Virus record (IMG/VR): IMGVR_UViG_3300045988_159607
From: a virus
Length of the DNA stretch: 64,000 nucleotides
Reading direction: 5' to 3' (one strand)
Shown: positions 19,767 to 60,738 of the stretch, piece by piece
Position numbering within the stretch: position 1 is the first letter of the stretch
Layout of the letters: the number at the start of each line of letters is the position of its first letter
Made by a program: the position numbers and the translations under genes
Notes under the pieces: generated by a model
Seen by the model: the letters and a program-made list of their open reading frames with translations, nothing else
What the model was told of the DNA's origin: nothing
The model's database searches: none

Positions 19767-20372
19767 ATGAAAACGAATAAAGTATTAAAAATATTACAAA
19801 TTACAAGACCTACTTTGACTAAATATGTCAAAGTAGGTAAAATCAGAGTAATCACAAAACCGAATGGTTTTTATGATTACAATGAAGATGATGTATATTC
19901 ACTCGCCGGTTATTCAACAAGAAGGTTAACGGTTTCATACTCAAGAGTTTCTACAAACAAGCAAAAGAAAGACCTTGAAAACCAAGAAAAATCAATCGTA
20001 TCTTATTGCAATAACAATGGGATAAGAGTTGATAAATCATACAAAGATATTGCAAGTGGAATGAACTTCGATAGGAAGCAGTTCCTTGAAATGTTTAACG
20101 ATATCATAGATAGAAAAATACAGACTGTTTATATAACATATAAGGATAGGTTGTCAAGAATTTCTTTTGATCTGTTTGAAAAACTTTTCAGGGAGTTTGG
20201 GTGTGAGATTATTGTAATAAACAATACGGAAGATAGAGAAACAAATGAATCAGAGATATTTGGAGAAATTATTTCCATGCTTCATTGTTTTGCTATGAAA
20301 ATGTACTCGAAAAGAAGAAAAAATAAACTTGAAATCGTAAGTAAGGATTTAGAAAATGAGATTAGTCTATAA
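19767..20372 (+). CDS. tnpA: IS607-type serine recombinase transposase (MerR-like HTH + resolvase domain)
   Basis: N-terminal HTH ILQITRPTLTKYVKVGKI. Catalytic VSYSRVSTNKQKKDLENQ. A TATATTTG box lies 4 nt upstream of the ATG. Confidence 0.8.
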   Translation: MKTNKVLKILQITRPTLTKYVKVGKIRVITKPNGFYDYNEDDVYSLAGYSTRRLTVSYSRVSTNKQKKDLENQEKSIVSYCNNNGIRVDKSYKDIASGMNFDRKQFLEMFNDIIDRKIQTVYITYKDRLSRISFDLFEKLFREFGCEIIVINNTEDRETNESEIFGEIISMLHCFAMKMYSKRRKNKLEIVSKDLENEISL

Positions 20373-21588
20373 GTTCAACATAGGGAAGAATGAAGATATA
20401 TCGAAGTTGTGCAAGGTTAGTAACAACCTGTATAACCAAGCTTTGTATGTCTTTCGGGAAACATTGAAAAATGAATCCAAATGGCTTTCCTATTTTGAAC
20501 TTGACAAAATCTTGAAGGATACAAGAAACTTGGATGGAGAAATAAATTACAGATTACTGAAGGCTCAATGTTCTCAACAGGTACTTAAACTACTTGATAA
20601 GAATATAAAAAGCTATTACAAATCTGTTCAGGATTATAAGAAATATCCAAATAAGTATAAAGAAAAACCGGGGCTTCCAAGTTATAGGAAAAGAGGTTCC
20701 GAGTTTAATATGTATTATACAAATCAAAATTGTAGAATAAGGATTGGTAAAATAATTCTTTCAAAGGAACTTTCGATAAGCATTCCTCAATATGAGAAGT
20801 ATTCTGATTTGCTTGAAAATTTCAAACAAGTAAGAATATTACCTAATCACATAGGGTATAGAATTGAAGTTATTTATGAAGTGGAAGATATTGAAATCCC
20901 TAAAAGTAAGGAAGAGAAAATAGCTTCTATTGATTTAGGTATTGACAATCTGGCGACTATTGTCAGTGAGGATTTTACTATTATTTTTAGTGGTAAATTT
21001 GTTAAATCACACAATAAGCTATTTAACAAGACATTAGCTGAATTGAATAGTATAAAAGATTCGCAAAAAATAAAAGGGGCAACGAAACGAATAAAGAAAT
21101 TATATTATGACAGGGATAATTACATAGAGGATGTATTTCATAAGATCAGTAGAAAGATAGTTGATTTGCTTATCGATTCTAAGATAACAAAATTAGTTGT
21201 AGGCTATAATAAGGGATGGAAAACTGGAGTAAATATAGGTAAAAGGAACAACCAGAAGTTTACACAAATCCCTTTTGCGAGATTGGTTAGTTACTTAGAA
21301 TACAAATGTGAATTAGCTGGTATTGAAATAGTTATTCATGAAGAATCATATACTTCAAAATGTGACTCTCTTGCATTTGAGAAGATAGGAAGACATGATA
21401 GCTATTTAGGAAGAAGGAAGAAACGAGGGTTGTTTCAATCTTCGGTAGGAAAGCTCATTAATGCTGATGTAAATGGTGCATTGAACATTATGAGAAAAGT
21501 AGTTGGTGATTCCTGTGAATCAATTCGTAGGATAATCGATAGAGGGTTATTGTTTAATCCGGTAAGGATTACGAATGTATTTTGTTAA
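20356..21588 (+). CDS. tnpB: TnpB (OrfB) RuvC-like RNA-guided nuclease
   Basis: RuvC-I ASIDLGIDNLAT, RuvC-II HEESYTSKCD, RuvC-III NADVNGALNI. Confidence 0.8.
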   Translation: MRLVYKFNIGKNEDISKLCKVSNNLYNQALYVFRETLKNESKWLSYFELDKILKDTRNLDGEINYRLLKAQCSQQVLKLLDKNIKSYYKSVQDYKKYPNKYKEKPGLPSYRKRGSEFNMYYTNQNCRIRIGKIILSKELSISIPQYEKYSDLLENFKQVRILPNHIGYRIEVIYEVEDIEIPKSKEEKIASIDLGIDNLATIVSEDFTIIFSGKFVKSHNKLFNKTLAELNSIKDSQKIKGATKRIKKLYYDRDNYIEDVFHKISRKIVDLLIDSKITKLVVGYNKGWKTGVNIGKRNNQKFTQIPFARLVSYLEYKCELAGIEIVIHEESYTSKCDSLAFEKIGRHDSYLGRRKKRGLFQSSVGKLINADVNGALNIMRKVVGDSCESIRRIIDRGLLFNPVRITNVFC

Positions 21589-23349: not shown

Positions 23350-26300
23350 ATGGAAAATCTGTTTAACGAGTTGGAAGAATATCTTTCTTCCAATACAATA
23401 CAATACACTTCTGACAGGGAAAACTATACCGTGTCATTTGATGGAAAGACATACGAGCTTTTTTCTCCAAATGATGATGGGTATTTCTTTGATGAAGATT
23501 TTCGATGGGACAATGAAGCTACCGAATATGATGGATATGTCTTTCGTTTTGGTGGCGTATGGTACACCATAGAGAAAGGACAGGAACGTGATCCTAAGCT
23601 GAATCGTGTAAAATGGAGAGGGCAAAGCGAAGTGGCAGGGCTTTCTTCCAATTTTTTGGGCGTGCATGGTTCATTTGAGCTTCTAAACGGAACAAGCCTA
23701 TATTCTGATTGGGTGAAGAAAGCCAAATTCTTAGGGATCGAACGTCTTGGGATAGTGGAAAAGGGGACACTTGCAGGAGCATTGAAATTTCAGAATGCTT
23801 GCAAATCTGTAGGAATTATCCCTGTGTTTGGGTTGGAAGTCCCTGTAAAAGATGAAAAAAAAGACATTTCGTTCACTTACAAAATCTATGCTAAAAACGA
23901 AAAGGGGTGGCAGCATCTTCTTGCCATCAACAAAATAATCAATTGTGATTCTTCCGGGAAATTCATAACTCCCAAGGATATGTCGGAGCATGTGACAGAT
24001 GTGTTTATCATATTTGACCCGAAAACAATTGATTATACTGATGTTCCTATTCTTTTAAGAAACAAGCATAACGTGTTTTGGCAAGCTGATACAGTGGAAT
24101 ATGCAAAGTTCAACAGAGATACAGAATATCTTACAAACTTTGAAGCCTTTTACAAGTCGAAAATGAAACCTGTAGCACTTTGCGATGCTTTCTATATTGA
24201 ACCGGAATACTATATTCTAAGGGAAACTGTAAACAAGATAGGAAAGAAGGTTAATCATAAATCCTACAACCAGTATTTTAAGGACGAAGTGACTTACATG
24301 GAAGAACTTCTTTCTTTGTTTGGAGATCAGTCTGTAGGGGAAGCCTTTTATTTAAAGGCACGGGAAAATATGGATATGATTGCGGAAAGCTGCAATTTTG
24401 AAATTCCTACTGACAGTAGACATCTTCCTCGTTACGAAATGACAAAAGAGGAAAAAGAAAAGTATGAATCCAACGAAGACATGTTTGATTCCCTTATCTA
24501 TGAAGGTCTGGAGAATAAACCGGAGCTTTTGGAAGACTATTCGGAAGATGTGTTGGTAGAACGGATTGAAAGGGAATCCGATACGATCAAATTTGGAGAT
24601 GTAGTGGATTATTTTTTGATCTTACGTGATATCGTCAATTGGTGCAAGGGGAACGATATTCTATTAGGTGGAGGAAGAGGTTCGTCAGCAGGATGTTTAA
24701 TTTCTTACCTTTTTGGTATTGTAAATACAAATGCCTTAAAGTTTAACTTACTTTTTGAAAGATTTTTGAACAAAGGACGTGCCAAAGTATCTCTTCCCGA
24801 TGTGGACACGGATGTTCCAGGAGAGAAAAGACCATTGGTAAAACGATACATGGAAAATCGTTTTGGAGAAACACAAGTTTGTTCTGTGGGTACATATACT
24901 ACCTTGCAGATAAAACAAGCTATAAACGACGTAGGAAAGATTTATGGAGCTTCCATTCCTACTCTTAGAAGAATCTCCAAAATGATAGAAGATGTGAAGA
25001 CGGAGGAAGATTTTCTAAGACTTGCTCATAGAAAAGAAGAAATAGCGCAATTCATGAATAAATATCCTGAAATGATGAATGTTGTTTTCCTTCTTCTTGG
25101 ACAACAAAAGGCAGCTTCTATTCATGCTTGTGCTATGATGATTTTTCCAAAGGAAAAGACAATGTACGAGTGGTGTCCTGTAAGAAAGGTGGACAATCTT
25201 GTTGTTAGCGAATGGGAAGGCGGAGAAATGGATGAGGCAGGTTTTCTGAAAGAAGATATCTTAGGAATCGAGCAGCTTGATAAATTTACCGATATTCTTA
25301 CCTTGATAGAAAAGAATACTGGAAAGAAGATCAATCTCTATACAGACATAGAATATGATGATTCAGAAGTGTACCGCTATTTTGCAAACGGCTGGCTTAG
25401 CGATATATTCCAATTCTCTGCAAAGGGACTTTCTTCTTACACACAGAAAATGAAACCTAAAAATATGGATGATGTGATTGCTGCACTTTCCTTGTTCCGT
25501 CCCGGACCAATGGAAAACGGCTTTCACATGGATTATATTGCATTGAAAAATGGAGAAAAAGAACCTGAATATCCTATTGGTGCAGAAGAAATATTGAAAG
25601 ATACATACGGGCTTCTTACTACACAGGAACAAATCATGAATATTTGCAATCAACTTGCTGATTTTGACTTAGTTACTTGTGATAAAGTACGCAAGGCATT
25701 GGGTAAGAAAAAGTTAGATGTTCTTCTCCCGTTAAAGGCAAAGTTCATAGAAGGGTACGTAAGCAAATTCGGAAGCAAAGGTGTAACCAAAGAGAGCGCA
25801 GAACATCTTTGGGATCAGATGGAAGAATTTGCTAAGTATTCGTTCAATCGCTGTATTTCAGGTAGTTGCAAGTTTTTAAGGAACGCTTGCTCTAAAAGTA
25901 AAAGACAACCAACCATTGAAGAGATGTATTTGATCCGAAACGATATTGAATTTGCGAAAGCAAATAATTGGTTGCCACTTAGAAGTAAATATATGAGATT
26001 GGGGTACGGGGAATGTCTTACTATGTGTGAAGATGGTAGAATTAGAACACGTAAGATTAAAGATATTCGATTTGCTGGCGTAAGGCAAACTTATAAAATT
26101 ACTTTAGAAGAAGGTCGGTATATTTCTGTTACAGATAATCACAAGTTTCCTACTCAAAGGGGAAAGGTAATGTGCAAAGATTTAGTAGTAGGAGAAGATA
26201 GTTTATTTGTCCAACTACCGTATGAGAAAACAGACAGCCAGCGATATAATTTTACAAATCTTAGAGGTAAAGACTGGTCTAAAGATCATAGAGAGTTTTT

Positions 26301-27633
26301 AAATTCTCAAAAAGGTCACATGGGTTTCGTAAAAACAAACGGAGAATCCTCTAAATTTAAAGATTTTAGGTCTGAAAATGGAGGGTGGGGGATTTGTAAA
26401 ATATGCAAGAAAGAAAGTCGATTAGAGATACATCATGTTGATGGGAATAGACGCAATAATGAAAATGAAAACCTTATTTCTATCTGCGCTTCTTGTCATA
26501 AGAAAATTCATTATCGAGAATTTAATAGGACAAGACGAGGGGAGAAAGGCTATCCTTCTAAACTAATGAGAATTGTTAGTATTGAGCCTGATAAGATAGA
26601 AAATGTATATGATGTTGAAGTGGACGATCCAAACCATAATTTTTGTACGGAACAAGGTGTTATTACTTGTAATAGTCACGCTGCTGCTTACGCTATTAAC
26701 GCTTACAATTCTTTGTGGCTGAAAGTACATTATCCATTGGAGTTTTGGTCGGTTGCCTTATCTCGTGCAAGTAAAGATGATTTTCCTCGTTACATTAATG
26801 AGATGAATCAAACGGAAGGGATCGAAATCAAGCCTGTCAATATCAACAAATCTGATGTTGGCATCGTAGGTGACAAAAAGAGCAACAGTGTTTATTGGGC
26901 GCTCAATGCCACCCAACAAGTCGGAGAAAAGGCACAGGAACAGATTATCAAAGAGAGAAATGAGAATGGAGATTATTTTTCTTTGGAAGAGTTTGTAGAC
27001 CGTCATTCCTTTAAGGGTTCTTCCGTTAATAAGTCCACTGTTGAAAACCTTATTTATTCAGGTGCTTTTGACGAGATGGACGAAACAAGAGAGTTTTCCA
27101 ATATCTTCTCTGCAAGGGAATATATGCTTGGGAAATATCGAGAAAAGAACCGTATCAAGATAGATAGGGAAAAGGACGAATACAGCGTTGCTTTCAGCAA
27201 AAACAAGATAGGTAAGGATTGGTGGTGGCTTTTGCAACAGAAAAACAAGTCCGGTTTCGCTTTCTTTGATTACAAGAAATTGACAGAGGAATACCTTCGG
27301 CAGAAAGCAAAGACTGCGGAATATTACGATGTGGACGATTTGCAAAACTATGACGGTTCTACTTATAAAATGGCAATGGTGGGAGGATATGTGTTGGAAG
27401 TGGAAGAAAAGGAGTCAAAAACAGGGGCATTTGCCAGCCTTCTACTTGAAAACAACTACAAATTTCTTCGTGTGGTGATATTCCCTGCCGACTATATGGA
27501 TAAAGAAGAATATATCCAAAGTTGCAAGAAGAACATCTTACTGCTTACAGGAAAGGTTTCTTTTGATAGATTTAAAGAGGAATATGTGATACAAGCAAAT
27601 GGAAACAGTCAATTTATAAAATTGGGAGTGTGA
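23350..27633 (+). CDS. dnaE: DNA polymerase III alpha (DnaE-type) replicase, interrupted by an HNH intein
   Basis: PHP-like N-terminus, GGGRGSSAGCLISYLFGI, PDVDTD, FRPGPM, and YSFNR|...|SHAAAYA. Confidence 0.8.
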   Translation: MENLFNELEEYLSSNTIQYTSDRENYTVSFDGKTYELFSPNDDGYFFDEDFRWDNEATEYDGYVFRFGGVWYTIEKGQERDPKLNRVKWRGQSEVAGLSSNFLGVHGSFELLNGTSLYSDWVKKAKFLGIERLGIVEKGTLAGALKFQNACKSVGIIPVFGLEVPVKDEKKDISFTYKIYAKNEKGWQHLLAINKIINCDSSGKFITPKDMSEHVTDVFIIFDPKTIDYTDVPILLRNKHNVFWQADTVEYAKFNRDTEYLTNFEAFYKSKMKPVALCDAFYIEPEYYILRETVNKIGKKVNHKSYNQYFKDEVTYMEELLSLFGDQSVGEAFYLKARENMDMIAESCNFEIPTDSRHLPRYEMTKEEKEKYESNEDMFDSLIYEGLENKPELLEDYSEDVLVERIERESDTIKFGDVVDYFLILRDIVNWCKGNDILLGGGRGSSAGCLISYLFGIVNTNALKFNLLFERFLNKGRAKVSLPDVDTDVPGEKRPLVKRYMENRFGETQVCSVGTYTTLQIKQAINDVGKIYGASIPTLRRISKMIEDVKTEEDFLRLAHRKEEIAQFMNKYPEMMNVVFLLLGQQKAASIHACAMMIFPKEKTMYEWCPVRKVDNLVVSEWEGGEMDEAGFLKEDILGIEQLDKFTDILTLIEKNTGKKINLYTDIEYDDSEVYRYFANGWLSDIFQFSAKGLSSYTQKMKPKNMDDVIAALSLFRPGPMENGFHMDYIALKNGEKEPEYPIGAEEILKDTYGLLTTQEQIMNICNQLADFDLVTCDKVRKALGKKKLDVLLPLKAKFIEGYVSKFGSKGVTKESAEHLWDQMEEFAKYSFNRCISGSCKFLRNACSKSKRQPTIEEMYLIRNDIEFAKANNWLPLRSKYMRLGYGECLTMCEDGRIRTRKIKDIRFAGVRQTYKITLEEGRYISVTDNHKFPTQRGKVMCKDLVVGEDSLFVQLPYEKTDSQRYNFTNLRGKDWSKDHREFLNSQKGHMGFVKTNGESSKFKDFRSENGGWGICKICKKESRLEIHHVDGNRRNNENENLISICASCHKKIHYREFNRTRRGEKGYPSKLMRIVSIEPDKIENVYDVEVDDPNHNFCTEQGVITCNSHAAAYAINAYNSLWLKVHYPLEFWSVALSRASKDDFPRYINEMNQTEGIEIKPVNINKSDVGIVGDKKSNSVYWALNATQQVGEKAQEQIIKERNENGDYFSLEEFVDRHSFKGSSVNKSTVENLIYSGAFDEMDETREFSNIFSAREYMLGKYREKNRIKIDREKDEYSVAFSKNKIGKDWWWLLQQKNKSGFAFFDYKKLTEEYLRQKAKTAEYYDVDDLQNYDGSTYKMAMVGGYVLEVEEKESKTGAFASLLLENNYKFLRVVIFPADYMDKEEYIQSCKKNILLLTGKVSFDRFKEEYVIQANGNSQFIKLGV
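25852..26673 (+). mobile_element. intein (274 aa) with HNH homing-endonuclease domain in the DnaE FN(K/R)SHAAAY motif
   Basis: Starts CISGSC. Block B VTDNHKFPT. HNH CKICKK..EIHHVDGNRRNNENENLISICASCHKKIH. Ends VYDVEVDDPNHNFCTEQGVITCN followed by +1 Ser. Confidence 0.8.
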
Positions 27634-35190: not shown

Positions 35191-35235
35191 TGTAAGAATA
35201 TATTTTGACATGTAAGAATAAACTATTACATTTGC
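35191..35235 (+). promoter_or_regulatory. tandem TGTAAGAATA operator-like sites overlapping a TACATTTG -7 box
   Basis: TGTAAGAATA at 35191 and 35211, then TATTACATTTG with the box at 35227-35234. The same composite occurs at 54509 and 55853 on the other strand. Confidence 0.55.
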
Positions 35236-47037: not shown

Positions 47038-47316
47038 ATGAATTTAGCAATCATAATACTTTCAGTTGTGGCAGCGTTCCTATTGGTTGCTGTCGTTATC
47101 CTTTGGATCAGGGTCAGGAATTTAAAAGATTATTTGCTTTATATCGATTCCAGAATTGATTCAGTAAGGCTTAATTACCTATTAGGATTTAGAAACAATC
47201 TGATTACAGCGGAAAGATTTGAAGATGTGGAATATATCAATGAATTGATAAAGGACGAGTTTGGCATAGAAAACATTGAAAAACTTTCAATAGATAATTT
47301 GCTTGAAATACTATAA
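47038..47316 (+). CDS. single-pass membrane protein (holin/spanin candidate)
   Basis: N-terminal TM segment NLAIIILSVVAAFLLVAVVILWI. Adjacent to a putative cell-wall-active protein. Confidence 0.35.
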   Translation: MNLAIIILSVVAAFLLVAVVILWIRVRNLKDYLLYIDSRIDSVRLNYLLGFRNNLITAERFEDVEYINELIKDEFGIENIEKLSIDNLLEIL

Positions 47317-54459: not shown

Positions 54460-54473
54460 ATCCTTAATTATTT

Positions 54474-54559
54474 TAGTTGTTATTATTAGTTCTTTTCTTT
54501 GATACAAATGTAATACTTTATTCTTACATAACAAGAGATTTTGAGTTAAGAAAGGTTAA
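54474..54559 (-). repeat. 86-bp promoter/5'-leader repeat, copy 1
   Basis: Identical to 55818..55903. Contains the TGTAAGAATAAAGTATTACATTTG composite (minus sense). Confidence 0.85.
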
Positions 54560-54724
54560 GTTACTTTTTGGTAGCCCTTCTATACCAATATAAAGCACTC
54601 CCAAGAAAATAGGAAAGGAAAGAATAACATGTATAACGTTGTCGGCTTCTAAAGTCAAAAACATAAGAGCTAAAACAAAAGCCGCCGTAATCATCCGAAT
54701 AATAGAAAAAATTATTGCTTTCAT
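54524..54724 (-). CDS. small two-TM membrane protein
   Basis: 66 aa: IIRMITAAFVLALMFLTL ... VILSFPIFLGVLYIGI. Confidence 0.4.
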   Translation of the reverse strand: MKAIIFSIIRMITAAFVLALMFLTLEADNVIHVILSFPIFLGVLYIGIEGLPKSNLTFLNSKSLVM

Positions 54725-54762
54725 ATATTTGTTACTGTTTATCTGTTTTAATTATTGTATCG

Positions 54763-54969
54763 TTAACACTTATTTTTTACCGTCTTTTTAAAGGAAATAC
54801 CGCGCTTTGTTGCTTCGTAGGGTGTAAATGTAGTTATTTTCCCTTCTTTGTCGTGTCCTGTTATCCTTCTACAATTTGCGCCGTTGTTTCCCTTTACAAA
54901 CTCTTTTGCTTTCTGGAGGGAGGCGAACTTTTCGCCTCCGACACTCCAATAATATACACGCCTTTCCAT
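54763..54969 (-). CDS. hypothetical protein
   Basis: 68-aa ORF, 3 nt after the upstream stop. Confidence 0.4.
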   Translation of the reverse strand: MERRVYYWSVGGEKFASLQKAKEFVKGNNGANCRRITGHDKEGKITTFTPYEATKRGISFKKTVKNKC

Positions 54970-54972
54970 GAT

Positions 54973-55803
54973 TTAAAAATTATATTTTTCTTGCAGATAG
55001 TTTGCAAGGTCGTACAAATCAATTCCAGAACTGTAAAATACCCTTTCAAATTTTTGTAAAGCTCTTTTGCATGCGTTGTAACCTTCTTTCGTTCCTTCGA
55101 ACTCTGCCTGAAAATCTTCAAAGGAATAGCAATCTATTGCTATCTGGCAATCCGAAAGAAACGAATAAAACATTTCGAAAATATCCATTTCCGTTTTATT
55201 CGTTTGTCCGGTTTCGAAATTGCGCAAGCTGTCAAAAAAGTCAAACTTACCACTACTTTTACCGTACTTAAATTTTACAATGTAGTGGTTGTGCGATTCC
55301 GGGTATTTGTCATTCCACTTGCAAACCTTCGTATTCGATAGGGTGCAAGCAAGTTCTATTTTCTTGTCGTTGTAATCCAATACCGCTTTTTTACTATCAC
55401 CGTTGTATATCGTACAAGACTGATCCTCAAATTTTTCGCTTTCCGTTTTTTCGGTCAAACGGTAAATGTTACAATAACCAAGACCAACCACAATTAGGTA
55501 TTTTGTTTCGTACATTTGGAATAAATAACATTTGCTATCCTCAAACCAAATTTCATATGAAATACCGTTATTATCAAAATGTGCCTTTGCATCAATCTGG
55601 TATTCTTTTTCAAAAACACTTTCAGGAAAGGAAAGAGAGGTATCGATACCCTTTCCAAGTTCCGCGTAATCACATTTACATTCTTTGGTAGCTTTTTGCA
55701 AATTTGTACGCTTACCTGTTACAAAACCATTTAAACGATAAATTGCCTTAACGTTGCTTACTAAGTTCTTTACCTGGTTTACTGTTAATTTCTTTACTTC
55801 CAT
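54973..55803 (-). CDS. hypothetical protein
   Basis: The track ORF extends to 55878 through the repeated promoter. The real start is probably MEVKKLTVNQ at 55803. Confidence 0.55.
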   Translation of the reverse strand: MEVKKLTVNQVKNLVSNVKAIYRLNGFVTGKRTNLQKATKECKCDYAELGKGIDTSLSFPESVFEKEYQIDAKAHFDNNGISYEIWFEDSKCYLFQMYETKYLIVVGLGYCNIYRLTEKTESEKFEDQSCTIYNGDSKKAVLDYNDKKIELACTLSNTKVCKWNDKYPESHNHYIVKFKYGKSSGKFDFFDSLRNFETGQTNKTEMDIFEMFYSFLSDCQIAIDCYSFEDFQAEFEGTKEGYNACKRALQKFERVFYSSGIDLYDLANYLQEKYNF

Positions 55804-55817
55804 GATTGTAATTAGTT

Positions 55818-55903
55818 TAGTTGTTATTATTAGTTCTTTTCTTTGATACAAATGTAATACTTTATTCTTACATAACAAGAGATTTTGAGTTAAGAAAGGT
55901 TAA
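55818..55903 (-). repeat. 86-bp promoter/5'-leader repeat, copy 2
   Basis: Identical to 54474..54559. Confidence 0.85.
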
Positions 55904-56605
55904 TATAGTAGGGAAATGTGCATTTTTATAATGATAGTTTGTTACTTAATGTATCGAAATGTGCGAAATGATAGCGCGTTATCGCGCGAATGCAGCACTT
56001 TTCGAAAGAAAAAGTAGTATTACCCTACCAATTAAAAAGACCCCTATAAGAATAGCGAAAAAGTCATTGATACACAAACAATTGAATATCAACAAATTAG
56101 CTAAAAAGTAGGGAAATCTATGCAAGAAAATAGGGAAAAGAATATGCCATAGAATAGGAATAACCATTATTTAGATTTAGTCTAAATAAGAGAAAAGCAA
56201 ACCGGGAACAACTTGTAAATAGGTATAAAGGGCTACAAATGTGTATGTATAGGTAGGGTATGGTTTATAAATGCACATAGAAGGAAAAGGAATGGTAGAT
56301 TTGTATGTTATATGTGTTTTGTGTATATGTATGTACAGAGGTGTGTATATGTGTCCTCGCTACCTCGCACTCTCCTATACTCAAACCTTTCCCCAAACTC
56401 CCCTACTTCTCATCTATTCCCTTTGTTCATGAGGTTTTTGGAGTGTTTTTCAAATTGGTTTTCGTGATATTGTTGACTGCCTTCTTTGTATCTGCACTCT
56501 CTTCTATGGTGGTGTATAATGATTGTTTTTAAAATGGCATCTATTCGCTGCAACGCTCATATACGATGCCATTTTAGGAGCTATAAAACCATTTATAAGC
56601 CTATT

Positions 56606-56639
56606 TTCCTATATATAGTATATATACTATATATAGGAA
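56606..56639. repeat. perfect 34-bp palindrome TTCCTATATATAGTATA|TATACTATATATAGGAA
   Basis: Checked base by base; all 17 pairs are complementary. Confidence 0.95.
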
Positions 56640-56918
56640 CTTTCAATGTATCGTAACTATCTCATACGCTTGTGTGGTGATATGTACCCTGGAGTAGTGC
56701 GTTCCTATGATTTAAATAACTTCTATTTCCTCAAAAACTAATGAAGTCAAATAAGACGATTTAAGGCACTTTCTTTTTGTGGGTGGTAGTGGAGTACCAT
56801 TTTGGCAAGAAAGTGCCAAGAAAACGATAATAGATAGGTTAGGCGGGGTATTTTGTTTATGTAGGGTATCTTTAGGGACTGTTTGAGGACTCTCCATATA
56901 AAGCCTGCGTCTCTAATA

Positions 56919-57050
56919 CCTCACAGGACAAAACTCTTAAATAGACTTCTATAAGGGCGTTTTAAGACAAAATATACATTTATCTCATTGATTTTCTGCT
57001 ATTTACATATACAAAATCTCTAAATAGACCCCTTATAGACGAAAAACATT
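56919..57050. repeat. paralogous unit U1 (stem TCTATAAGGG / CCCTTATAGA enclosing a conserved 72-nt core)
   Basis: Aligns with U2, which lies 168 bp downstream. Stem arms at 56948-56957 and 57030-57039. Confidence 0.7.
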
Positions 57051-57086
57051 CCAAAAATCATCTACATCTGAATCATGTGCCCGACA

Positions 57087-57220
57087 CCTCACAAGAAATG
57101 AACTTAAAATACTATCCATATAGGGTTTCTCAAATTAAAGTACATATTTATCCTATTGATTTTCAACTATTTACATATATACGAAATTTTTAAAATCAGC
57201 TATATGGGGAATTTTCATAT
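57087..57220. repeat. paralogous unit U2 (stem CCATATAG / CTATATGG enclosing a conserved 76-nt core)
   Basis: Stem arms at 57116-57123 and 57200-57207. Shares the core TACAT(A)TTTATC..ATTGATTTTC..CTATTTACATATA with U1. Confidence 0.7.
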
Positions 57221-57655
57221 CAAACACTCCTGGGATTGTGGTAGGATAAAGGTTCTGTTCCTATATATCAGTTCTTTCTTGTCTTTTTGCTTTCTATGAG
57301 GGGGAGGGGTCTTTTGTTTTCCTACATATAGTTTTTCTTTGTTGATTTTTGAGAGTGGGTATATGTGGAAATCTGGTTTTTCTCTCCTATAGGGAAAATT
57401 TTGTGGGGTTGTCCATATCTATTCTTTTTCGGAAGGGGAGTCGGCTAAAGCCGCCTTTTTAACCCCTTCCGAGAGGGAATCGCTGCGCTCAATACATCAA
57501 AACCACCCATTTTTACAATTTGTAAAGTAAATTGCCAAAACAATGACAGTTTGAAAAACCCTCCTATTGGGGCTGGAAACCATTAAATTTTGATAGCAAA
57601 ATCCTATTTTTAATTTACAAAATGATACACTAAAATTACCAAAATCAGTCCAAAA

Positions 57656-57675
57656 TGTAAGAATATATTCTTACA
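57656..57675. promoter_or_regulatory. perfect 20-bp palindrome TGTAAGAATATATTCTTACA (operator-like)
   Basis: Consensus form of the motif found at 35191, 35211, 44168, 54509, 55853 and 57805. Confidence 0.6.
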
Positions 57676-58047
57676 AATCACAGGATTCTTCCTACTTCCG
57701 AGTAGTATCTATAGACACATTTGTAGCGATAGAATAGGTGTTGTTTCTTCTGATGAGAGCAAATCCTCCTATTTTAACAGGTGGCAACACTTTTGTTGTC
57801 TATTTGTAAAGGTATATTCTTACATTTTTAAAAAGGTAATTAACATTTGGGTAAAATGATACTAATTTTGAGGTAGGAAGACTTATTGTATATTTTTTAA
57901 ATGAGCATTAAAAATCGGTTTTTGGTAGTTTTTGAAGATAATATATTAAATATCAACAATTTATAAATTTTCATTCTTTGAGTGCGCCCTATATGCGAAA
58001 AAGTTTTACTTATTGTATTTTTTTGAATGAAAAATAGGCTTTGTTTG

Positions 58048-58112
58048 CCATAGTATAGTATTACATTTTCATGAAAAATGATTTTAACATTTCAAGTAAT
58101 ACTATACTATGG
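58048..58112 (-). terminator. 17-bp perfect-stem hairpin, 8 nt after the antirepressor-remnant stop
   Basis: CCATAGTATAGTATTAC-31 nt-GTAATACTATACTATGG. On the minus strand it is followed by a partly T-rich stretch. Confidence 0.5.
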
Positions 58113-58120
58113 GAAGATCG

Positions 58121-58375
58121 CTACATCTTGGAATAGTACTCCAGAAACTTGTTCAAGATATGCAGTTGTCCTGCCGGAGTTACCATAGGTGTCGATACGG
58201 TTATCGTACTTCCGTTTGGTTTCGTTATAACTCTTTTCTTGATCTCAAACAATCCTGATTCTATATAGCGTTGCATAGGCTGATTGTAATATTCTCCTTT
58301 TGTTCCCAGATAACCTTTCTTTCTTAACCACTTGAAGGTGATTATATACCACTTTACACCAAAATCGTAAAGTAA
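58121..58375 (-). pseudogene. C-terminal remnant of a phage antirepressor (KilAC/ANT-like domain) with no start codon
   Basis: Hand translation LLYDFGVKWYIITFKWLRKKGYLGTKGEYYNQPMQRYIESGLFEIKKRVITKPNGSTITVSTPMVTPAGQLHILNKFLEYYSKM*. It fits the pattern WL...G.l....N.P.Q.yi..GlFe.k......nG......t..vT..G. The frame is closed by a TAG inside the tnpB 3' end and has no upstream Met. Confidence 0.55.
58334..58361. repeat. inverted repeat, left arm, flanking solo tnpB
   Basis: GAAGGTGATTATATACCACTTTACACCA. 27 of 28 positions are complementary to 59659..59686. Confidence 0.85.
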
Positions 58376-58382
58376 TACATAT

Positions 58383-59606
58383 TTATACGGAAATCCGTAC
58401 CGGGTTCCACCAAAACCCTCTACTTTCTGGTAACATCGTTACATCAAAGGATTCTTTTTCTGATTTACGGATGATGTTAAAAGCTCCGTTTATATCAGCG
58501 TTGATTATCTTACCGGAAGAAGTTTTAAACAATCCTCGTTTGATTCTTCTTCCTTTATAGGATTCATGTTTACAAATCTTCTCATTATCCAAGAAACTAC
58601 ATTTAGAAGTATAAGATTCTTCAACAATCTTAACATTAATTCCTTCTAATGTTGCTTTATACGATATCATAGAGATAAACACATTGAAAGGAATAGACAC
58701 AAAGTTTTGATTATTACGTTTTCCGATATTGATCTCTTGTTTCCAGCATTTGTTATGACCGATTATGATCGTATTAATACCATTGGAAACTACATGATTA
58801 ATCAATATCCTACTTGCCTTATGAAGATAATCTTTGATCTTGTTGTTCCTTTTATTGGTTAATGACCTGATTTGTTTTGAAATCTGTTTATTGCCTTTTA
58901 ATTTAGATTTTAAGTATGATAATCTTTTATTATAATACTGGTTGATAGACTTCAAAGGTCTACCATTGATGATAAAACAAGAACCGTTGTTTGAAACACA
59001 GGAAGCTAAATTATCTAATCCTATATCAATACCAAGATAAGATTCATTATCTGACATAAGATCTTTTTCCTTCTTGTTGTAAATTATTTCAAGAACAATA
59101 TACCCATTCTTAGGAATGAATCTAAGTTGTTGAATATTTTGTTTATTGGTTCTTGTTGTAAAGGAAAACTGTTTTGGCAACTTAACAATGCCTTGCTTTA
59201 TCCATTTTTGAGAAAAAGCTGCGGTCGTAAAAACAGCAGTAAACAAACCGTCTTTGTTTAGATACCCAGGTATTCTAACAAATTCGGAATACTCACCTCT
59301 ATTCTTTTTATTAAGGAGATTAAAGAACGATTTAAAGTTTCTATCTACCATCATCAACACTTGTTGAGCAACTGGTGTTGGTAAAGCACGATAGTCAACA
59401 TCATTTTCTGTTTTCAACACTCTTTCGAGAGAATAATAGTTGAGGTATTTATACTTTACAGTATTATCATCTTTGTATTGAAAGTAGTGTTGTCTAACAA
59501 CATACAACCCTTTATTGTATAAGTTTTTGCACTTATGCAATAGGTCTTGAAGCTCATTGTAATATATTGAACTTTGTTTGATCGTATGTTGTTCGACTAA
59601 TCTCAT
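58383..59606 (-). CDS. tnpB: solo TnpB (OrfB) RuvC-like RNA-guided nuclease
   Basis: RuvC-I LGIDIGLDNLAS, RuvC-II VEESYTSKCS, RuvC-III NADINGAFNI. Start taken at MRLVEQ (compare MRLVYK in the other copy). A TATATTTG box lies 4 nt upstream. Confidence 0.8.
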   Translation of the reverse strand: MRLVEQHTIKQSSIYYNELQDLLHKCKNLYNKGLYVVRQHYFQYKDDNTVKYKYLNYYSLERVLKTENDVDYRALPTPVAQQVLMMVDRNFKSFFNLLNKKNRGEYSEFVRIPGYLNKDGLFTAVFTTAAFSQKWIKQGIVKLPKQFSFTTRTNKQNIQQLRFIPKNGYIVLEIIYNKKEKDLMSDNESYLGIDIGLDNLASCVSNNGSCFIINGRPLKSINQYYNKRLSYLKSKLKGNKQISKQIRSLTNKRNNKIKDYLHKASRILINHVVSNGINTIIIGHNKCWKQEINIGKRNNQNFVSIPFNVFISMISYKATLEGINVKIVEESYTSKCSFLDNEKICKHESYKGRRIKRGLFKTSSGKIINADINGAFNIIRKSEKESFDVTMLPESRGFWWNPVRISV

Positions 59607-59658
59607 GGCACAAATATAGAAATTATTATTTATAAATAAAAACAATTCGGTATATTTG

Positions 59659-59686
59659 TGGTGTAAAGTTGTATATAATCACCTTC
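59659..59686. repeat. inverted repeat, right arm, flanking solo tnpB
   Basis: TGGTGTAAAGTTGTATATAATCACCTTC. Confidence 0.85.
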
Positions 59687-59993: not shown

Positions 59994-60738
59994 TCATACT
60001 CCTTTAAATACAAATAGTTTCTCTGTTGGTTTGTATGTATTCTTTATAGACATGGCATTTGTAATTTGTTTCTCCCATATACATTCAAAGTCTTCGGGAG
60101 CACTATATTCGCTTACAAATACTTTAGCTTTTCTTGAAACTTTCCTTACCCACATCCAAAAACTATCATGATCAAAGTTTTTACTTGTTGAATATTGCTT
60201 TGTTCCCTTGTATGGCGGATCACAATAAACTATAGAATTTTCAGGTACATCAATATTTCTAAAATCCAAGCATGTAAATTTCACTCCTTGTATTTTAGGG
60301 ATGGTTTTGATTGTATTATTGATGTTTTCTTTAATATAGTCCCTTCCTTTTACATCGTGCCCTGAATAACCTCCGTCAAAAAATCTTCCATTAAAAGAAC
60401 CCATAAACCCGACCCATCCTATTAGAGCTGAATGTCTCATATCACAAATACCCCTTTCCTTTTTCTATTTTGTGATAATCTTCTCTTATTTCTTTATAGA
60501 AATTTCTTGTTATTTTAAATGGCAGGCTGTCAGTTCCATTCTTTTGAAGTTCTATAAACATATTAATCAAATATCTGTTTTTGTCGTTCGCTATCCTTTT
60601 ATACGATGCAGGTATTTCTTCTACGATAGAACAACTCCCGCAAAAGGCATCTATAAACGTTTCGTTGCCTTTTGATCCTTTTAGCAGGATGGGGATTATT
60701 TCGTTCCTTATCCTGCTTTTATTCCCCATATATTTCAT
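59994..60738 (-). pseudogene. Dam-like (D12-class) N6-adenine DNA methyltransferase split into two ORFs by a 1-nt frame change
   Basis: N-terminal half MKYMGNKSRI...FIDAFCGSCSIV (motif I) ends at a TGA at 60442-60444. The C-terminal half (GFMGSFNGRFF..., CDPPYKGT) starts 1 nt out of frame at 60440. Confidence 0.75.

What the first reader, a model, noticed from the sequence alone, without database searches (positions are those of the whole stretch)
55904..58047. 2.1-kb ORF-free, structure-dense island in an otherwise tightly packed genome
- Elsewhere in the window the intergenic gaps are mostly 0-150 nt. Here about 2.1 kb has no credible ORF.
- TAA, TAG and TGA all occur in every frame, so reassigning a single stop codon cannot rescue coding.

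**Contents**
- A purine-rich segment with GGGAAA-type motifs (55.9-56.35 kb) that switches abruptly to a pyrimidine-rich segment (56355-56425).
- A TG/TA alternating tract (56301-56355).
- An isolated CGCG-rich patch (GATAGCGCGTTATCGCGCG, about 55969-55988) in an AT-rich context.
- Three long hairpins, a 34-bp perfect palindrome, two paralogous structured units and two operator-like palindromes.

**Candidate roles**
- Replication origin.
- Packaging or terminal region.
- A cluster of non-coding RNAs.
Basis: partly seen in the sequence, partly recalled or inferred. Interest (0 to 1): 0.7.

Follow-up and report, generated by a model that had tools for sequence, protein, structure and literature searches.

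The report
Conserved gene-free control island in gut phage
A 2.3-kb stretch with no genes in a common human-gut Bacteroides-type phage is kept by essentially all relatives as a patchwork of exact DNA motifs, hairpins and one perfect palindrome, so it is a working DNA control region, most likely the replication origin and early-control region, although its role cannot be proven from sequence alone.

Summary
Window 55804-58120 (2.3 kb) has no ORF beyond chance length. It is the largest gap in a genome whose median gap is about 5 nt, and it is enriched about 5.6-fold in strong local hairpins.

It is not junk. 44 of 45 relatives found through the neighbouring Ant-like gene carry the island (2.0-3.2 kb). 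Its best-conserved strings are kept better than the flanking coding DNA.

It is not a known RNA, a tRNA cluster, or a large structured RNA. The three universally conserved blocks have almost no conserved secondary structure.

What is conserved:
- A 27-nt string made of three 11-nt phased repeats.
- Two invariant ACTTATTGTAT 11-mers bracketing an 18-28% GC segment.
- A divergent pair of orphan operator/promoter modules of the type found upstream of real genes.
- A 34-bp palindrome present in at least 12 sequence variants, all perfect.
- Covarying hairpins, one of them shaped like a bidirectional terminator.

Between these lie hypervariable parts: a TG/TA microsatellite and 1-3 tandem units.

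Best reading, at confidence 0.35: a cis-acting DNA region serving as replication origin and early control. Rivals are a transcription boundary with small unstructured RNAs, or a packaging/entry site. The adjacent TnpB element is a separate, recent insertion.

The parts
55842..55904 (-). Promoter/operator module P1 of the left-flank 276-aa gene. It has a -7 box TACATTTG (within 55849-55857), an operator palindrome TGTAATACTTTATTCTTACA (55853-55872) and an upstream element GTTAA-N5-GTTAA (55888-55904). It marks the left edge of the island.
   Evidence: the same module lies 60-75 nt upstream of ATGs at 35226(+), 44183(+), 54513(-) and 55857(-); it is part of a ~95-nt repeat (55809-55904 = 54465-54563). 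AGTTAAGAAAGGTTAAT is exact in at least 80% of 50 independently found relatives.
55970..55988 (.). CG-rich patch with a short GCGCG/CGCGC hairpin.
   Evidence: z -0.6, so not significant alone; a distant relative (L009) has a different, longer GC-rich hairpin with A/T-tract flanks at the same position.
55990..56290 (+). Purine-rich segment (about 58-65% purine) with GTAGGGAAAT-type repeats, a conserved TGATACACAA..GAATATCAACAAATTA string (56068-56099) and hairpin H8 (56167-56189).
   Evidence: H8 has z -5.2 and is kept, with loop changes, in relatives.
56290..56355 (.). TG/TA microsatellite-like tract, hypervariable in length and sequence.
   Evidence: the alignment collapses here; contigs L007 and L010 end at or near it.
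56355..56430 (+). Pyrimidine-rich segment (33% purine).
   Evidence: It does not pair with the purine-rich arm: folds of 55990-56440 give z +0.6 and -0.6.
56531..56575 (.). Hairpin H2. It is two-tiered, has an A-tract before and a T-tract after, and looks like a bidirectional intrinsic terminator.
   Evidence: 13 sequence variants across relatives all fold (-8 to -24 kcal/mol); 5 pairs show compensatory double changes; z -2.9.
56606..56639 (.). 34-bp perfect TA-rich palindrome P (TTCCTATATATAGTATA|TATACTATATATAGGAA).
   Evidence: at least 12 sequence variants (30-38 bp) over about 59 instances, all perfect, with symmetric double substitutions; one per genome and only in this phage group; z -5.75.
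56765..56817 (.). Hairpin H4 (GGCACTTTCTT...AAGAAAGTGCC with an inner stem).
   Evidence: z -4.1; the inner stem is kept with G-C to G-U changes, while the outer stem is weak in the distant subgroup.
56842..56895 (.). Core of block B: GGGTA (56846), then three 11-nt phased repeats AGGGTATCTTT / AGGGACTGTTTG / AGGACTCTCC. It contains the near-universal 27-mer at 56863-56889.
   Evidence: the 27-mer is exact in at least 80% of 50 relatives found through a protein, whereas flanking coding DNA shares only 15-17% of its 16-mers; unique in the window; no supporting RNA structure.
56905..57240 (.). Two tandem paralogous ~168-nt units. Each has CACAAGA..AAATAG..TATAGGG motifs plus an AT-rich TTATC..ATTGATTTTCA segment.
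   Evidence: 99/140 identical; 1-3 copies in relatives, and the B-to-C distance ranges from 396 to 759 nt; no conserved long-range stem over 38 copies.
57290..57510 (.). Block C, conserved in all relatives, with G-clusters on the + strand and hairpin H5 (57430-57471, CGGAAGGGG...CCCCTTCCG).
   Evidence: aligned in 27-30 of 30 relatives; the outer stem is invariant, the apical stem covaries (GC 17 / CG 24), and nothing else is structured; z -2.9.
57511..57615 (.). Indel-variable segment, replaced by a different ~216-nt sequence in close relatives.
57652..57678 (-). Orphan operator/promoter module P2. It holds the perfect 20-bp palindrome TGTAAGAATATATTCTTACA (57656-57675) and a -7-like TACATTTT facing left.
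   Evidence: The block (D0) is conserved in up to 29 of 30 relatives. No ORF lies downstream.
57679..57801 (.). 123-nt spacer between P2 and P3, with the small hairpin H7 (57783-57800).
   Evidence: inverted repeat I2; same orientation in 39 of 39 relatives, so there is no sign of inversion. H7 z -3.3.
57802..57828 (+). Orphan operator/promoter module P3 (TGTAAAGGTATATTCTTACA, -7-like TACATTTT) facing right.
57830..58040 (.). Block D: two invariant ACTTATTGTAT 11-mers (57881-57891 and 58008-58018) bracketing a segment of 18-28% GC. The block is duplicated in distant relatives.
   Evidence: zero conserved base pairs on either strand; among the least stable duplex segments of the window; a second copy in many relatives.
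58045..58115 (.). Hairpin H6 (about 18-20-bp stem, ~31-nt loop) directly after the stop of the Ant-like gene; probable terminator of that operon.
   Evidence: z -7.0. L009 has an unrelated 18-bp-stem hairpin at the same place; only sub-threshold miRNA-like Rfam scores.
58121..58336 (-). Not part of the island: the 3' remnant (last 71 codons) of an Ant/KilAC-BRO-N gene that is intact (287 aa) in relatives.
58337..59683 (-). Not part of the island: a TnpB (OrfB_IS605 + Cas12f1-like TNB) insertion element that replaced about 580 nt of the Ant-like gene.
   Evidence: it is absent at this site in L001, L002, L005 and L006, and homology resumes at 59684.

Best explanation
The island is a cis-acting DNA control region of an uncultivated human-gut phage, probably of the proposed family 'Flandersviridae' with a Bacteroidales host. 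It is not coding sequence and not a large structured RNA. I read it as the phage's replication origin combined with an early-transcription control region.

**Proposed working (all inferred)**
- A phage regulator binds the TGTAA-N10-TTACA operators. The island holds the best (perfect) copy of this operator.
- The divergent orphan modules P2 and P3 fire, or are held, next to conserved DNA. On the right this is an easily melted 18-28% GC segment bracketed by two invariant ACTTATTGTAT sites.
- The three 11-nt phased repeats of the 27-mer, the 1-3 tandem units and the perfect palindrome act as protein-binding or hairpin-forming elements of the initiation complex.
- A transcript or R-loop could supply the primer, processed by the phage RNase H and extended by its PolA. 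RecA and SbcCD would then support later recombination-dependent replication.
- Hairpins H6 and H2 act as terminators that insulate the region from the flanking minus-strand operons.

**Shown:** absence of coding; conservation; the motifs; hairpin covariation; palindrome symmetry; lack of conserved RNA structure in blocks B, C and D.
**Inferred:** protein binding, promoter activity, and the origin function itself.
For: - **Functional and non-coding.** 44 of 45 relatives found through the Ant-like protein have the island, 2.0-3.2 kb long. It has no ORF above chance length, and ORFs over conserved blocks are not kept.
- **DNA-level rather than RNA-structure constraint.** The 27-mer and the GACTTATTGTATATTTTT string are exact in at least 80% of 50 relatives, while neighbouring coding DNA shares only 15-17% of its 16-mers. 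Blocks B, C and D show 1, 1 and 0 covarying or conserved helices.
- **Origin-like anatomy.**
  - Three 11-nt phased repeats.
  - Invariant 11-mers 127 nt apart around an 18-28% GC segment.
  - The block is duplicated in some relatives, and the tandem units vary from 1 to 3 copies.
  - A perfect palindrome is kept symmetric through at least 12 variants.
- **Orphan promoter/operator modules.** They are of the type found upstream of four real genes, and here they have no ORF downstream.
- **No competing site.** This is the only large non-coding gap. The divergent strand-switch region of a relative has no comparable gap.
- **Compatible gene set.** DnaB, PolA, RNase H, RecA and SbcCD are present, and no recognisable initiator was found in the window.
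Against: - There is no direct evidence of replication initiation.
- No DnaA box lies within one mismatch of consensus in the island. GATC is depleted rather than clustered.
- No initiator gene is adjacent. The left-flank 276-aa protein has a confident model but no match to a known fold.
- GC skew is equally negative on both sides of the island, about -0.19 against -0.18, so there is no replication-type switch.
- The global duplex-stability minimum is elsewhere, at 19.7 kb.
- The P2 and P3 -7 boxes end in T instead of the G of the TAnnTTTG consensus. That consensus is taken from my own knowledge of Bacteroides promoters. The modules may therefore not be promoters.
- A canonical-looking bidirectional terminator (H2) in the middle implies that the region is transcribed, which also fits the RNA rival.
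Confidence: 0.35

Rival explanations
1. Transcription boundary plus small, largely unstructured regulatory RNAs. H6 ends the Ant operon. P2 and P3 (and possibly other promoters) make non-coding transcripts that stop at H2, H4 or H6. The invariant 27-mer or 11-mers would be single-stranded 'seed' sequences that pair with host or phage mRNAs. The operators tie the RNAs to the early regulatory circuit.
For: - Promoter/operator modules without ORFs.
- H2 has the shape of a bidirectional terminator and covaries. H6 sits at the gene end and is conserved in position but not in sequence.
- The extended H2 and H5 helices pair consistently only on the + strand, through G-U/A-U alternation.
- Long exact strings without structure are what sRNA seeds look like.
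Against: - No Rfam hit.
- The -7 boxes of P2 and P3 deviate at the conserved G.
- Tandem copy-number variation and block duplication are unusual for RNA genes.
- No complementary target was found in the window for the 27-mer at up to 3 mismatches.
- 2.3 kb is large for a boundary.
Confidence: 0.3
2. Packaging, genome-end or DNA-entry signal. This would be a pac/cos or terminal-repeat boundary, or a T5-like 'injection stop' region, built from repeats and palindromes that bind terminase or host membrane factors.
For: - It resembles the T5 untranslated Repeat Region 3, described as repeats, inverted repeats and palindromes conserved in order among relatives (bioRxiv 10.1101/866236).
- A once-per-genome universally conserved 27-mer made of phased repeats.
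- Several ~100-kb contigs end at the island's left edge.
Against: - Those contig ends coincide with the edge of the 95-nt promoter repeat and with the microsatellite, that is, with assembly break points.
- In other contigs the island is internal, at varied positions.
- TerL is 40 kb away.
- There are no DnaA boxes, which define the T5 region.
Confidence: 0.1
3. The palindrome is a site for a DNA-processing enzyme: a recombinase (lox/dif-like), a telomere resolvase, or a hairpin nuclease. The rest of the island would be accessory sites for plasmid-like maintenance.
For: - The perfect 34-bp palindrome keeps its symmetry through at least 12 variants.
- Benler et al. 2021 (PMC8008677) speculate on a P1-like extrachromosomal state for 'Flandersviridae'.
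- The phage encodes SbcCD and RecA.
Against: - No tyrosine recombinase or protelomerase domain was found in any scanned ORF of the window. The 750-aa and 380-aa proteins have no PDB sequence match.
- The only serine recombinase belongs to an IS607-type element at 19.8 kb.
- No partition genes were found.
- No integrated or plasmid copy turned up in bacterial genomes or plasmids.
- About 35-40 kb of the genome lies outside the window and was not screened with protein-family models.
Confidence: 0.08
4. Decayed gene cassettes, insertion debris, or unrecognised very small genes.
For: - Hypervariable segments and mosaic alleles.
- Orphan promoter modules could be remnants of lost cassettes.
Against: - Present in 44 of 45 relatives with the same block order.
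- Its most conserved strings are kept better than the neighbouring coding DNA.
- Hairpins covary.
- No conserved ORF, and conserved runs show no codon periodicity.
Confidence: 0.05

Closest known systems
Phage T5 untranslated Repeat Region 3 / injection stop signal (iss) region
   Same: A 1-2-kb untranslated stretch in a tightly packed virulent-phage genome. [quoted passage not shown]
   Different: The T5 region lies in the terminal repeat and is defined by eight paired DnaA or DnaA-like boxes. Here no DnaA box is present, no terminal repeat is known, and there is no sequence similarity.
Transcription-primed origins (T7 primary origin; T4 oriF/oriG; ColE1)
   Same: A promoter without a gene firing into an AT-rich, easily melted segment, in a phage that encodes PolA and RNase H. 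The comparison rests on my knowledge of those origins.
   Different: Promoter activity and R-loop formation are untested. The -7 boxes deviate from the consensus. The island is far larger and carries extra elements: the palindrome, the phased repeats and the tandem units.
Iteron/palindrome origins (lambda ori; HSV oriS; SV40 core origin)
   Same: Short phased repeats, an AT-rich segment and a palindrome together in one non-coding module. The comparison is from my own knowledge.
   Different: Those origins sit beside or inside the gene of a known initiator that binds the repeats. No initiator was found here.
Rho-independent bidirectional terminators
   Same: H2 is a GC-containing stem with an A-tract upstream and a T-tract downstream, and its stem covaries.
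   Different: H2 has a conserved two-tier shape and a semi-conserved loop (TGCAAC), which is more constraint than a plain terminator needs. This explains only about 45 nt of the island.

Membership tests
Any Rfam RNA family (including large phage-associated RNAs such as GOLLD, ROOL, HEARO) | Covariance-model match at or near the gathering score | tested here: not met
   (window 54500-59500, E<=1) gave only two miRNA-like sub-threshold hits on hairpin H6. One search (distant relative L009) gave one sub-threshold miRNA-like hit.
tRNA/tmRNA cluster | tRNA or tmRNA genes detectable by ARAGORN | tested here: not met
   0 genes in the whole window.
Large structured non-coding RNA (new family) | Conserved secondary structure with covariation across the conserved blocks | tested here: not met
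   Block B: -13.8 kcal/mol and 1 covarying pair. Block C: only hairpin H5. Block D: 0 pairs on either strand. Units: no long-range stem.
T5-type iss / Repeat Region 3 | Paired DnaA or DnaA-like boxes in inverted repeats | tested here: not met
   no TTATCCACA within 1 mismatch between 55804 and 58120.
T5-type iss / Repeat Region 3 | Location inside a long terminal repeat, next to pre-early genes | not testable with these tools
   Physical genome ends cannot be read from assemblies. Contig ends are explained by repeats.
T5-type iss / Repeat Region 3 | [quoted passage not shown] | tested here: met
Iteron-type replication origin | Array of direct repeats bound by an initiator encoded nearby | tested here: inconclusive
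   Three 11-nt phased repeats, two invariant 11-mers and 1-3 tandem units are present. No initiator gene was recognised (fold search).
Iteron-type replication origin | Adjacent AT-rich unwinding segment | tested here: met
   GC is 18% at 57879-57978 and 21% at 57579-57678. These are among the 12 least stable segments of 64 kb, though not the minimum.
Transcription-primed origin (T7/T4/ColE1 type) | Active promoter whose transcript forms a primer or R-loop at the unwinding segment | not testable with these tools
   Promoter-like modules P2 and P3 exist, but there are no expression data, and their -7 boxes end in T rather than G.
Protelomerase (hairpin-telomere) resolution site | Perfect palindrome | tested here: met
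   at least 12 variants, all perfect.
Protelomerase (hairpin-telomere) resolution site | Protelomerase or tyrosine-recombinase gene in the genome, usually adjacent | tested here: not met
   No such Pfam domain in about 57 scanned ORFs of the window. No PDB sequence match for the 750-aa and 380-aa proteins. The part of the genome outside the window was not screened with protein-family models.
Bacteroides-type invertible promoter (inverton) | Segment between the inverted repeats found in both orientations | tested here: not met
   the spacer has the same orientation in 39 of 39 relatives, with 0 inverted.
IS200/IS605-type TnpB element with its guide RNA | Sequence travels with tnpB | tested here: not met
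   The island is present in relatives that lack TnpB at this site. The element boundary is at 58336/58337.
Intrinsic (bidirectional) terminator, hairpin H2 only | Stable stem flanked by an A-tract and a T-tract, with stem pairing maintained | tested here: met

The most novel reading that the evidence does not exclude
The island is a new kind of initiator-less phage origin. The self-symmetrising 34-bp TA palindrome would extrude as a hairpin and be cut by the phage's own SbcCD. The break would be used by the phage RecA to start recombination-dependent replication. The operator-guarded orphan promoters and the phased repeats would time and position the event.
Probability: 0.06. Interest if true: 0.8.

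Novelty: new variant of a known kind. Interest (0 to 1): 0.5.

Why it matters
This phage group appears to match one of the most frequently assembled phage families of the human gut, the proposed 'Flandersviridae'. The paper that proposed the family (the only one read here) reports no origin, packaging site or regulatory circuit and does not mention this island.

The island is its only large non-coding region. It contains the most conserved nucleotide strings found at this locus. That makes it the obvious place to look for the cis-acting sites needed to engineer these phages, to build phage-dependent vectors for Bacteroides, or to explain their persistence.

The palindrome, which stays perfect through a dozen sequence variants, is a clean natural case of symmetry maintenance. 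If the region turns out to be an ordinary origin or regulatory region, it is a useful annotation rather than new biology.

Tried and rejected
- **Known RNA families and tRNAs:** none found.
- **One long hairpin from the purine-rich and pyrimidine-rich arms:** rejected, z +0.6 and -0.6.
- **Structured RNA in blocks B, C and D and in the units:** not supported.
- **DnaA boxes or a GATC cluster:** absent.
- **Invertible promoter between the 27-nt inverted repeats:** no inverted copy in 39 relatives.
- **Genome termini inferred from clustered contig ends:** explained by the 95-nt promoter repeat edge and the microsatellite.
- **Prophage, attP or plasmid origin homology:**
  - No hit for the 21-mer in 185,579 bacterial genomes.
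  - No plasmid hit.
  - The palindrome pattern hit only one unrelated Clostridia intergenic palindrome.
- **Palindrome in other phage families:** found only in this group.
- **Function of the left-flank gene as a possible initiator:** the AlphaFold model is confident (pLDDT 89), but there is no PDB fold match (best E 0.067, TM below 0.3). Its homologues occur only in this phage group and are unannotated.
- **Protelomerase or recombinase among the large unknown ORFs:** none.
- **Part of the TnpB element:** rejected.
- **Second large non-coding region at the divergent strand switch of a relative:** none.
- **Conserved small ORFs and stop-codon reassignment:** rejected.
Full report
**What the window is**

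The 64-kb window is part of an uncultivated human-gut phage.
- Plus-strand genes up to 47.8 kb include a large terminase, a DnaB-like helicase, a family-A-type DNA polymerase carrying an HNH insert, SbcD, RecA, SbcC, an NAD-dependent ligase, SNF2 and UvrD helicases, RNase H and methyltransferases.
- From 48.2 kb onward there is a block of small unknown genes on the minus strand.
- The terminase is 84% identical to an unannotated fecal contig and 35% identical to the Bacteroides phages DAC16-23. Its weak hits go to Salmonella, Klebsiella and Pectobacterium phages.
- Relatives are 85-108-kb contigs.
- Taken together with TAnnTTTG-type promoter boxes, this fits the proposed family 'Flandersviridae' (Benler et al. 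2021, PMC8008677). That paper does not mention this region. The assignment is probable, not proven.

**Checking the observation**

The left-flank gene starts at ATG 55803: its homologues are 276 aa long and cover it fully. The right flank is the stop codon at 58121. The ORF-free span is therefore 55804-58120, or 2317 nt.
- Its longest stop-free run is 82 codons, which equals the shuffle expectation of 79 +/- 15. Every other 2.24-kb slice of 1-47 kb has at least 146.
- No single stop-codon reassignment opens more than 160 codons.
- The 61-aa ORF lying over the best-conserved block is broken in 36 of 51 relatives.
- The median gap between crude gene calls is 5.5 nt, and 67 of 76 gaps are at or below 150 nt.
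- Strong local hairpins are enriched 5.6-fold: 11 of 109 windows against 56 of 3087.
- Individual hairpins have z-scores of -2.9 to -7.0. The exception is the CGCG patch at z -0.6.
- The only two perfect palindromes of 18 bp or more in the window are both in the island.
- The purine-rich to pyrimidine-rich switch (65% to 33% purine) and the TG/TA tract are real.

**What is not part of it**

The ORF at 58383-59645 is a TnpB.
- Relatives L001, L002, L005 and L006 align up to 58336 and resume at 59684. So 58337-59683 is an insertion element that replaced about 580 nt of a 287-aa Ant/KilAC-BRO-N gene.
- The window keeps only the last 71 codons of that gene, at 58121-58336.
- The island exists in relatives without the element.

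**Conservation**

Of 45 relatives found through the Ant-like protein, and so independently of island sequence, with at least 2.5 kb downstream, 44 carry the island. Its length runs from 2.0 to 3.2 kb, with a median of 2.7 kb. The region is a mosaic.
- Blocks present in all relatives: B (56740-56940), C (57290-57510), D0 (57614-57685) and D (57814-58040), plus the palindrome.
- Between them lie hypervariable stretches:
  - the TG/TA microsatellite, where two contigs break;
  - 1-3 copies of a ~168-nt unit;
  - an indel-variable segment at 57511-57615.
- A distant relative whose flanking protein is 68% identical has the same order of elements with largely different sequence.
- Three strings are exact in at least 80% of 50 Ant-anchored loci:
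  - AGGGTATCTTTAGGGACTGTTTGAGGA (56863-56889);
  - GACTTATTGTATATTTTT (57880-57897);
  - AGTTAAGAAAGGTTAAT (55888-55904).
- The flanking coding DNA shares only 15-17% of its 16-mers with those loci.

**RNA or DNA?**

- There is no Rfam or tRNA hit in the window or in a distant relative.
- Consensus folding of the universal blocks finds next to nothing. Block B gives -13.8 kcal/mol with one covarying pair. Block C has only one hairpin. Block D has zero pairs on either strand.
- The long-range stem seen in the two window units is not kept over 38 unit copies.
- Discrete hairpins, in contrast, are under selection.
  - H2 (56531-56575) exists in 13 sequence variants that all fold. It shows compensatory changes in both tiers and has A-tract/T-tract flanks, so it looks like a bidirectional terminator.
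  - The apical stem of H5 switches between GC and CG.
  - H6, immediately after the Ant stop codon, is replaced in a distant relative by an unrelated hairpin of similar size.
- The 34-bp palindrome occurs once per genome, only in this phage group. It has at least 12 sequence variants, all perfect, with symmetric double substitutions. That points to intra-strand pairing or strictly symmetric recognition.
- The constraint on the large conserved blocks is therefore on sequence. This is typical of protein-binding or base-pairing sites, not of RNA folds.

**Motif anatomy**

- The 27-mer is three 11-nt phased repeats (AGGGTATCTTT / AGGGACTGTTTG / AGGACTCTCC), with a fourth GGGTA 18 nt upstream.
- Block D holds two invariant ACTTATTGTAT sites 127 nt apart around an 18-28% GC segment. 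Many relatives carry a second copy of the block.
- A promoter/operator module (TTG..TGTAAGAATA-N-TATTCTTACATTTG) lies 60-75 nt upstream of the ATGs of four genes, at 35226, 44183, 54513 and 55857. It recurs inside the island as a divergent pair at 57652-57678 (-) and 57802-57828 (+) with no ORF downstream.
- The island copy at 57656-57675 is the only perfect 20-bp version of the operator.
- The -7 boxes of both island copies end in T instead of the consensus G. Promoter activity there is therefore uncertain.
- The 123-nt spacer between them is never inverted in 39 relatives.

**Interpretation**

- The evidence shows a conserved cis-acting region.
- I favour a replication origin combined with early control (0.35). 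The anatomy matches what origins look like, and this is the only large non-coding region: phased repeats, invariant sites around an easily melted segment, copy-number-variable units, a palindrome, and orphan promoters next to AT-rich DNA.
- The phage has DnaB, PolA, RNase H, RecA and SbcCD but no recognisable initiator in the window.
- The counter-evidence is serious:
  - no DnaA boxes;
  - no GATC cluster;
  - equal GC skew on both flanks;
  - a stability minimum elsewhere;
  - a neighbouring protein with no match to any known fold.
- The main rival (0.30) is a transcription boundary that also produces small, mostly unstructured RNAs whose conserved strings act as seeds. H2 and H6 look like terminators, and the extended H2 and H5 helices pair consistently only on the + strand.
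- Packaging, terminal or entry roles (0.10) have only a general resemblance to the T5 repeat region. Clustered contig ends are explained by repeats.
- A recombinase, telomere-resolvase or nuclease site (0.08) lacks an enzyme gene in the window.
- Junk or micro-ORFs (0.05) are contradicted by the conservation.

**Novelty**

The region has no sequence relative outside this phage group in phage records, plasmids or bacterial genomes. It is not mentioned in the paper that proposed the family. It belongs to a known kind, the large cis-acting non-coding region of a virulent phage, but with its own set of elements. I rate it a new variant of a known kind, of moderate interest.

Noticed in passing
window 58337-59683: A solo TnpB (420 aa, OrfB_IS605 + Cas12f1-like TNB) insertion element has truncated the Ant/KilAC-BRO-N gene. 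About 580 nt of the gene is missing relative to relatives that lack the element. A copy about 89% identical sits elsewhere in relatives L003 and L004.
   Followed up: partly
window 19767-21588: An IS607-type pair inside the replication module: a serine recombinase (Resolvase N-terminal domain, 201 aa, 19767-20372) directly followed by, and overlapping, a second TnpB (410 aa, 20356-21588). The least stable DNA segment of the whole window (about 19694) lies just upstream.
   Followed up: no
window 54465-54563 and 55809-55904: A ~95-nt near-identical repeat covers the promoter, operator, 5' leader and first codons of two successive minus-strand genes. Several relatives' ~100-kb contigs end exactly at its outer edge (TATAGTTAAGAAAGG...), which suggests it breaks assemblies and may mediate cassette shuffling.
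   Followed up: partly
window 11907, 35211, 44168, 51318, 54509, 55853, 57656, 57805; L133 1326, 7183, 8741, 10913, 48519: A genome-wide family of TGTAA-N8-12-TTACA palindromes, mostly overlapping TAnnTTTG-type -7 boxes upstream of genes. It looks like the operator set of an unidentified phage regulator.
   Followed up: partly
window 59994-60738 (minus strand): Two adjacent ORFs (98 aa and 148 aa, one nucleotide apart) match consecutive parts of one D12-class N6-adenine DNA methyltransferase profile. This is an apparently split or frameshifted methyltransferase gene.
   Followed up: no
whole window: The tetranucleotides CTAG (2 outside the island, none in it) and GGCC (8 outside the island, none in it) are almost absent from 64 kb, which is consistent with restriction-site avoidance.
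   Followed up: no
window 23350-27633: The 1427-aa DNA polymerase carries an internal HNH-endonuclease-like segment (about residues 1000-1080), which suggests an inserted homing endonuclease or intein-like element.
   Followed up: no
window 54973-55803 (minus strand): The 276-aa protein next to the island gives a confident AlphaFold model (pLDDT 89, pTM 0.74) with no significant match to any PDB fold. Its homologues occur only in this phage group, some as ~165-aa versions covering about 55% of the protein.
   Followed up: partly
L133 (MT835500.1) 47121-47152: A second long perfect palindrome (32 bp, GTACAAGAAATACGATATCGTATTTCTTGTAC) lies elsewhere in a relative's genome, outside the region covered by this window.
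   Followed up: no
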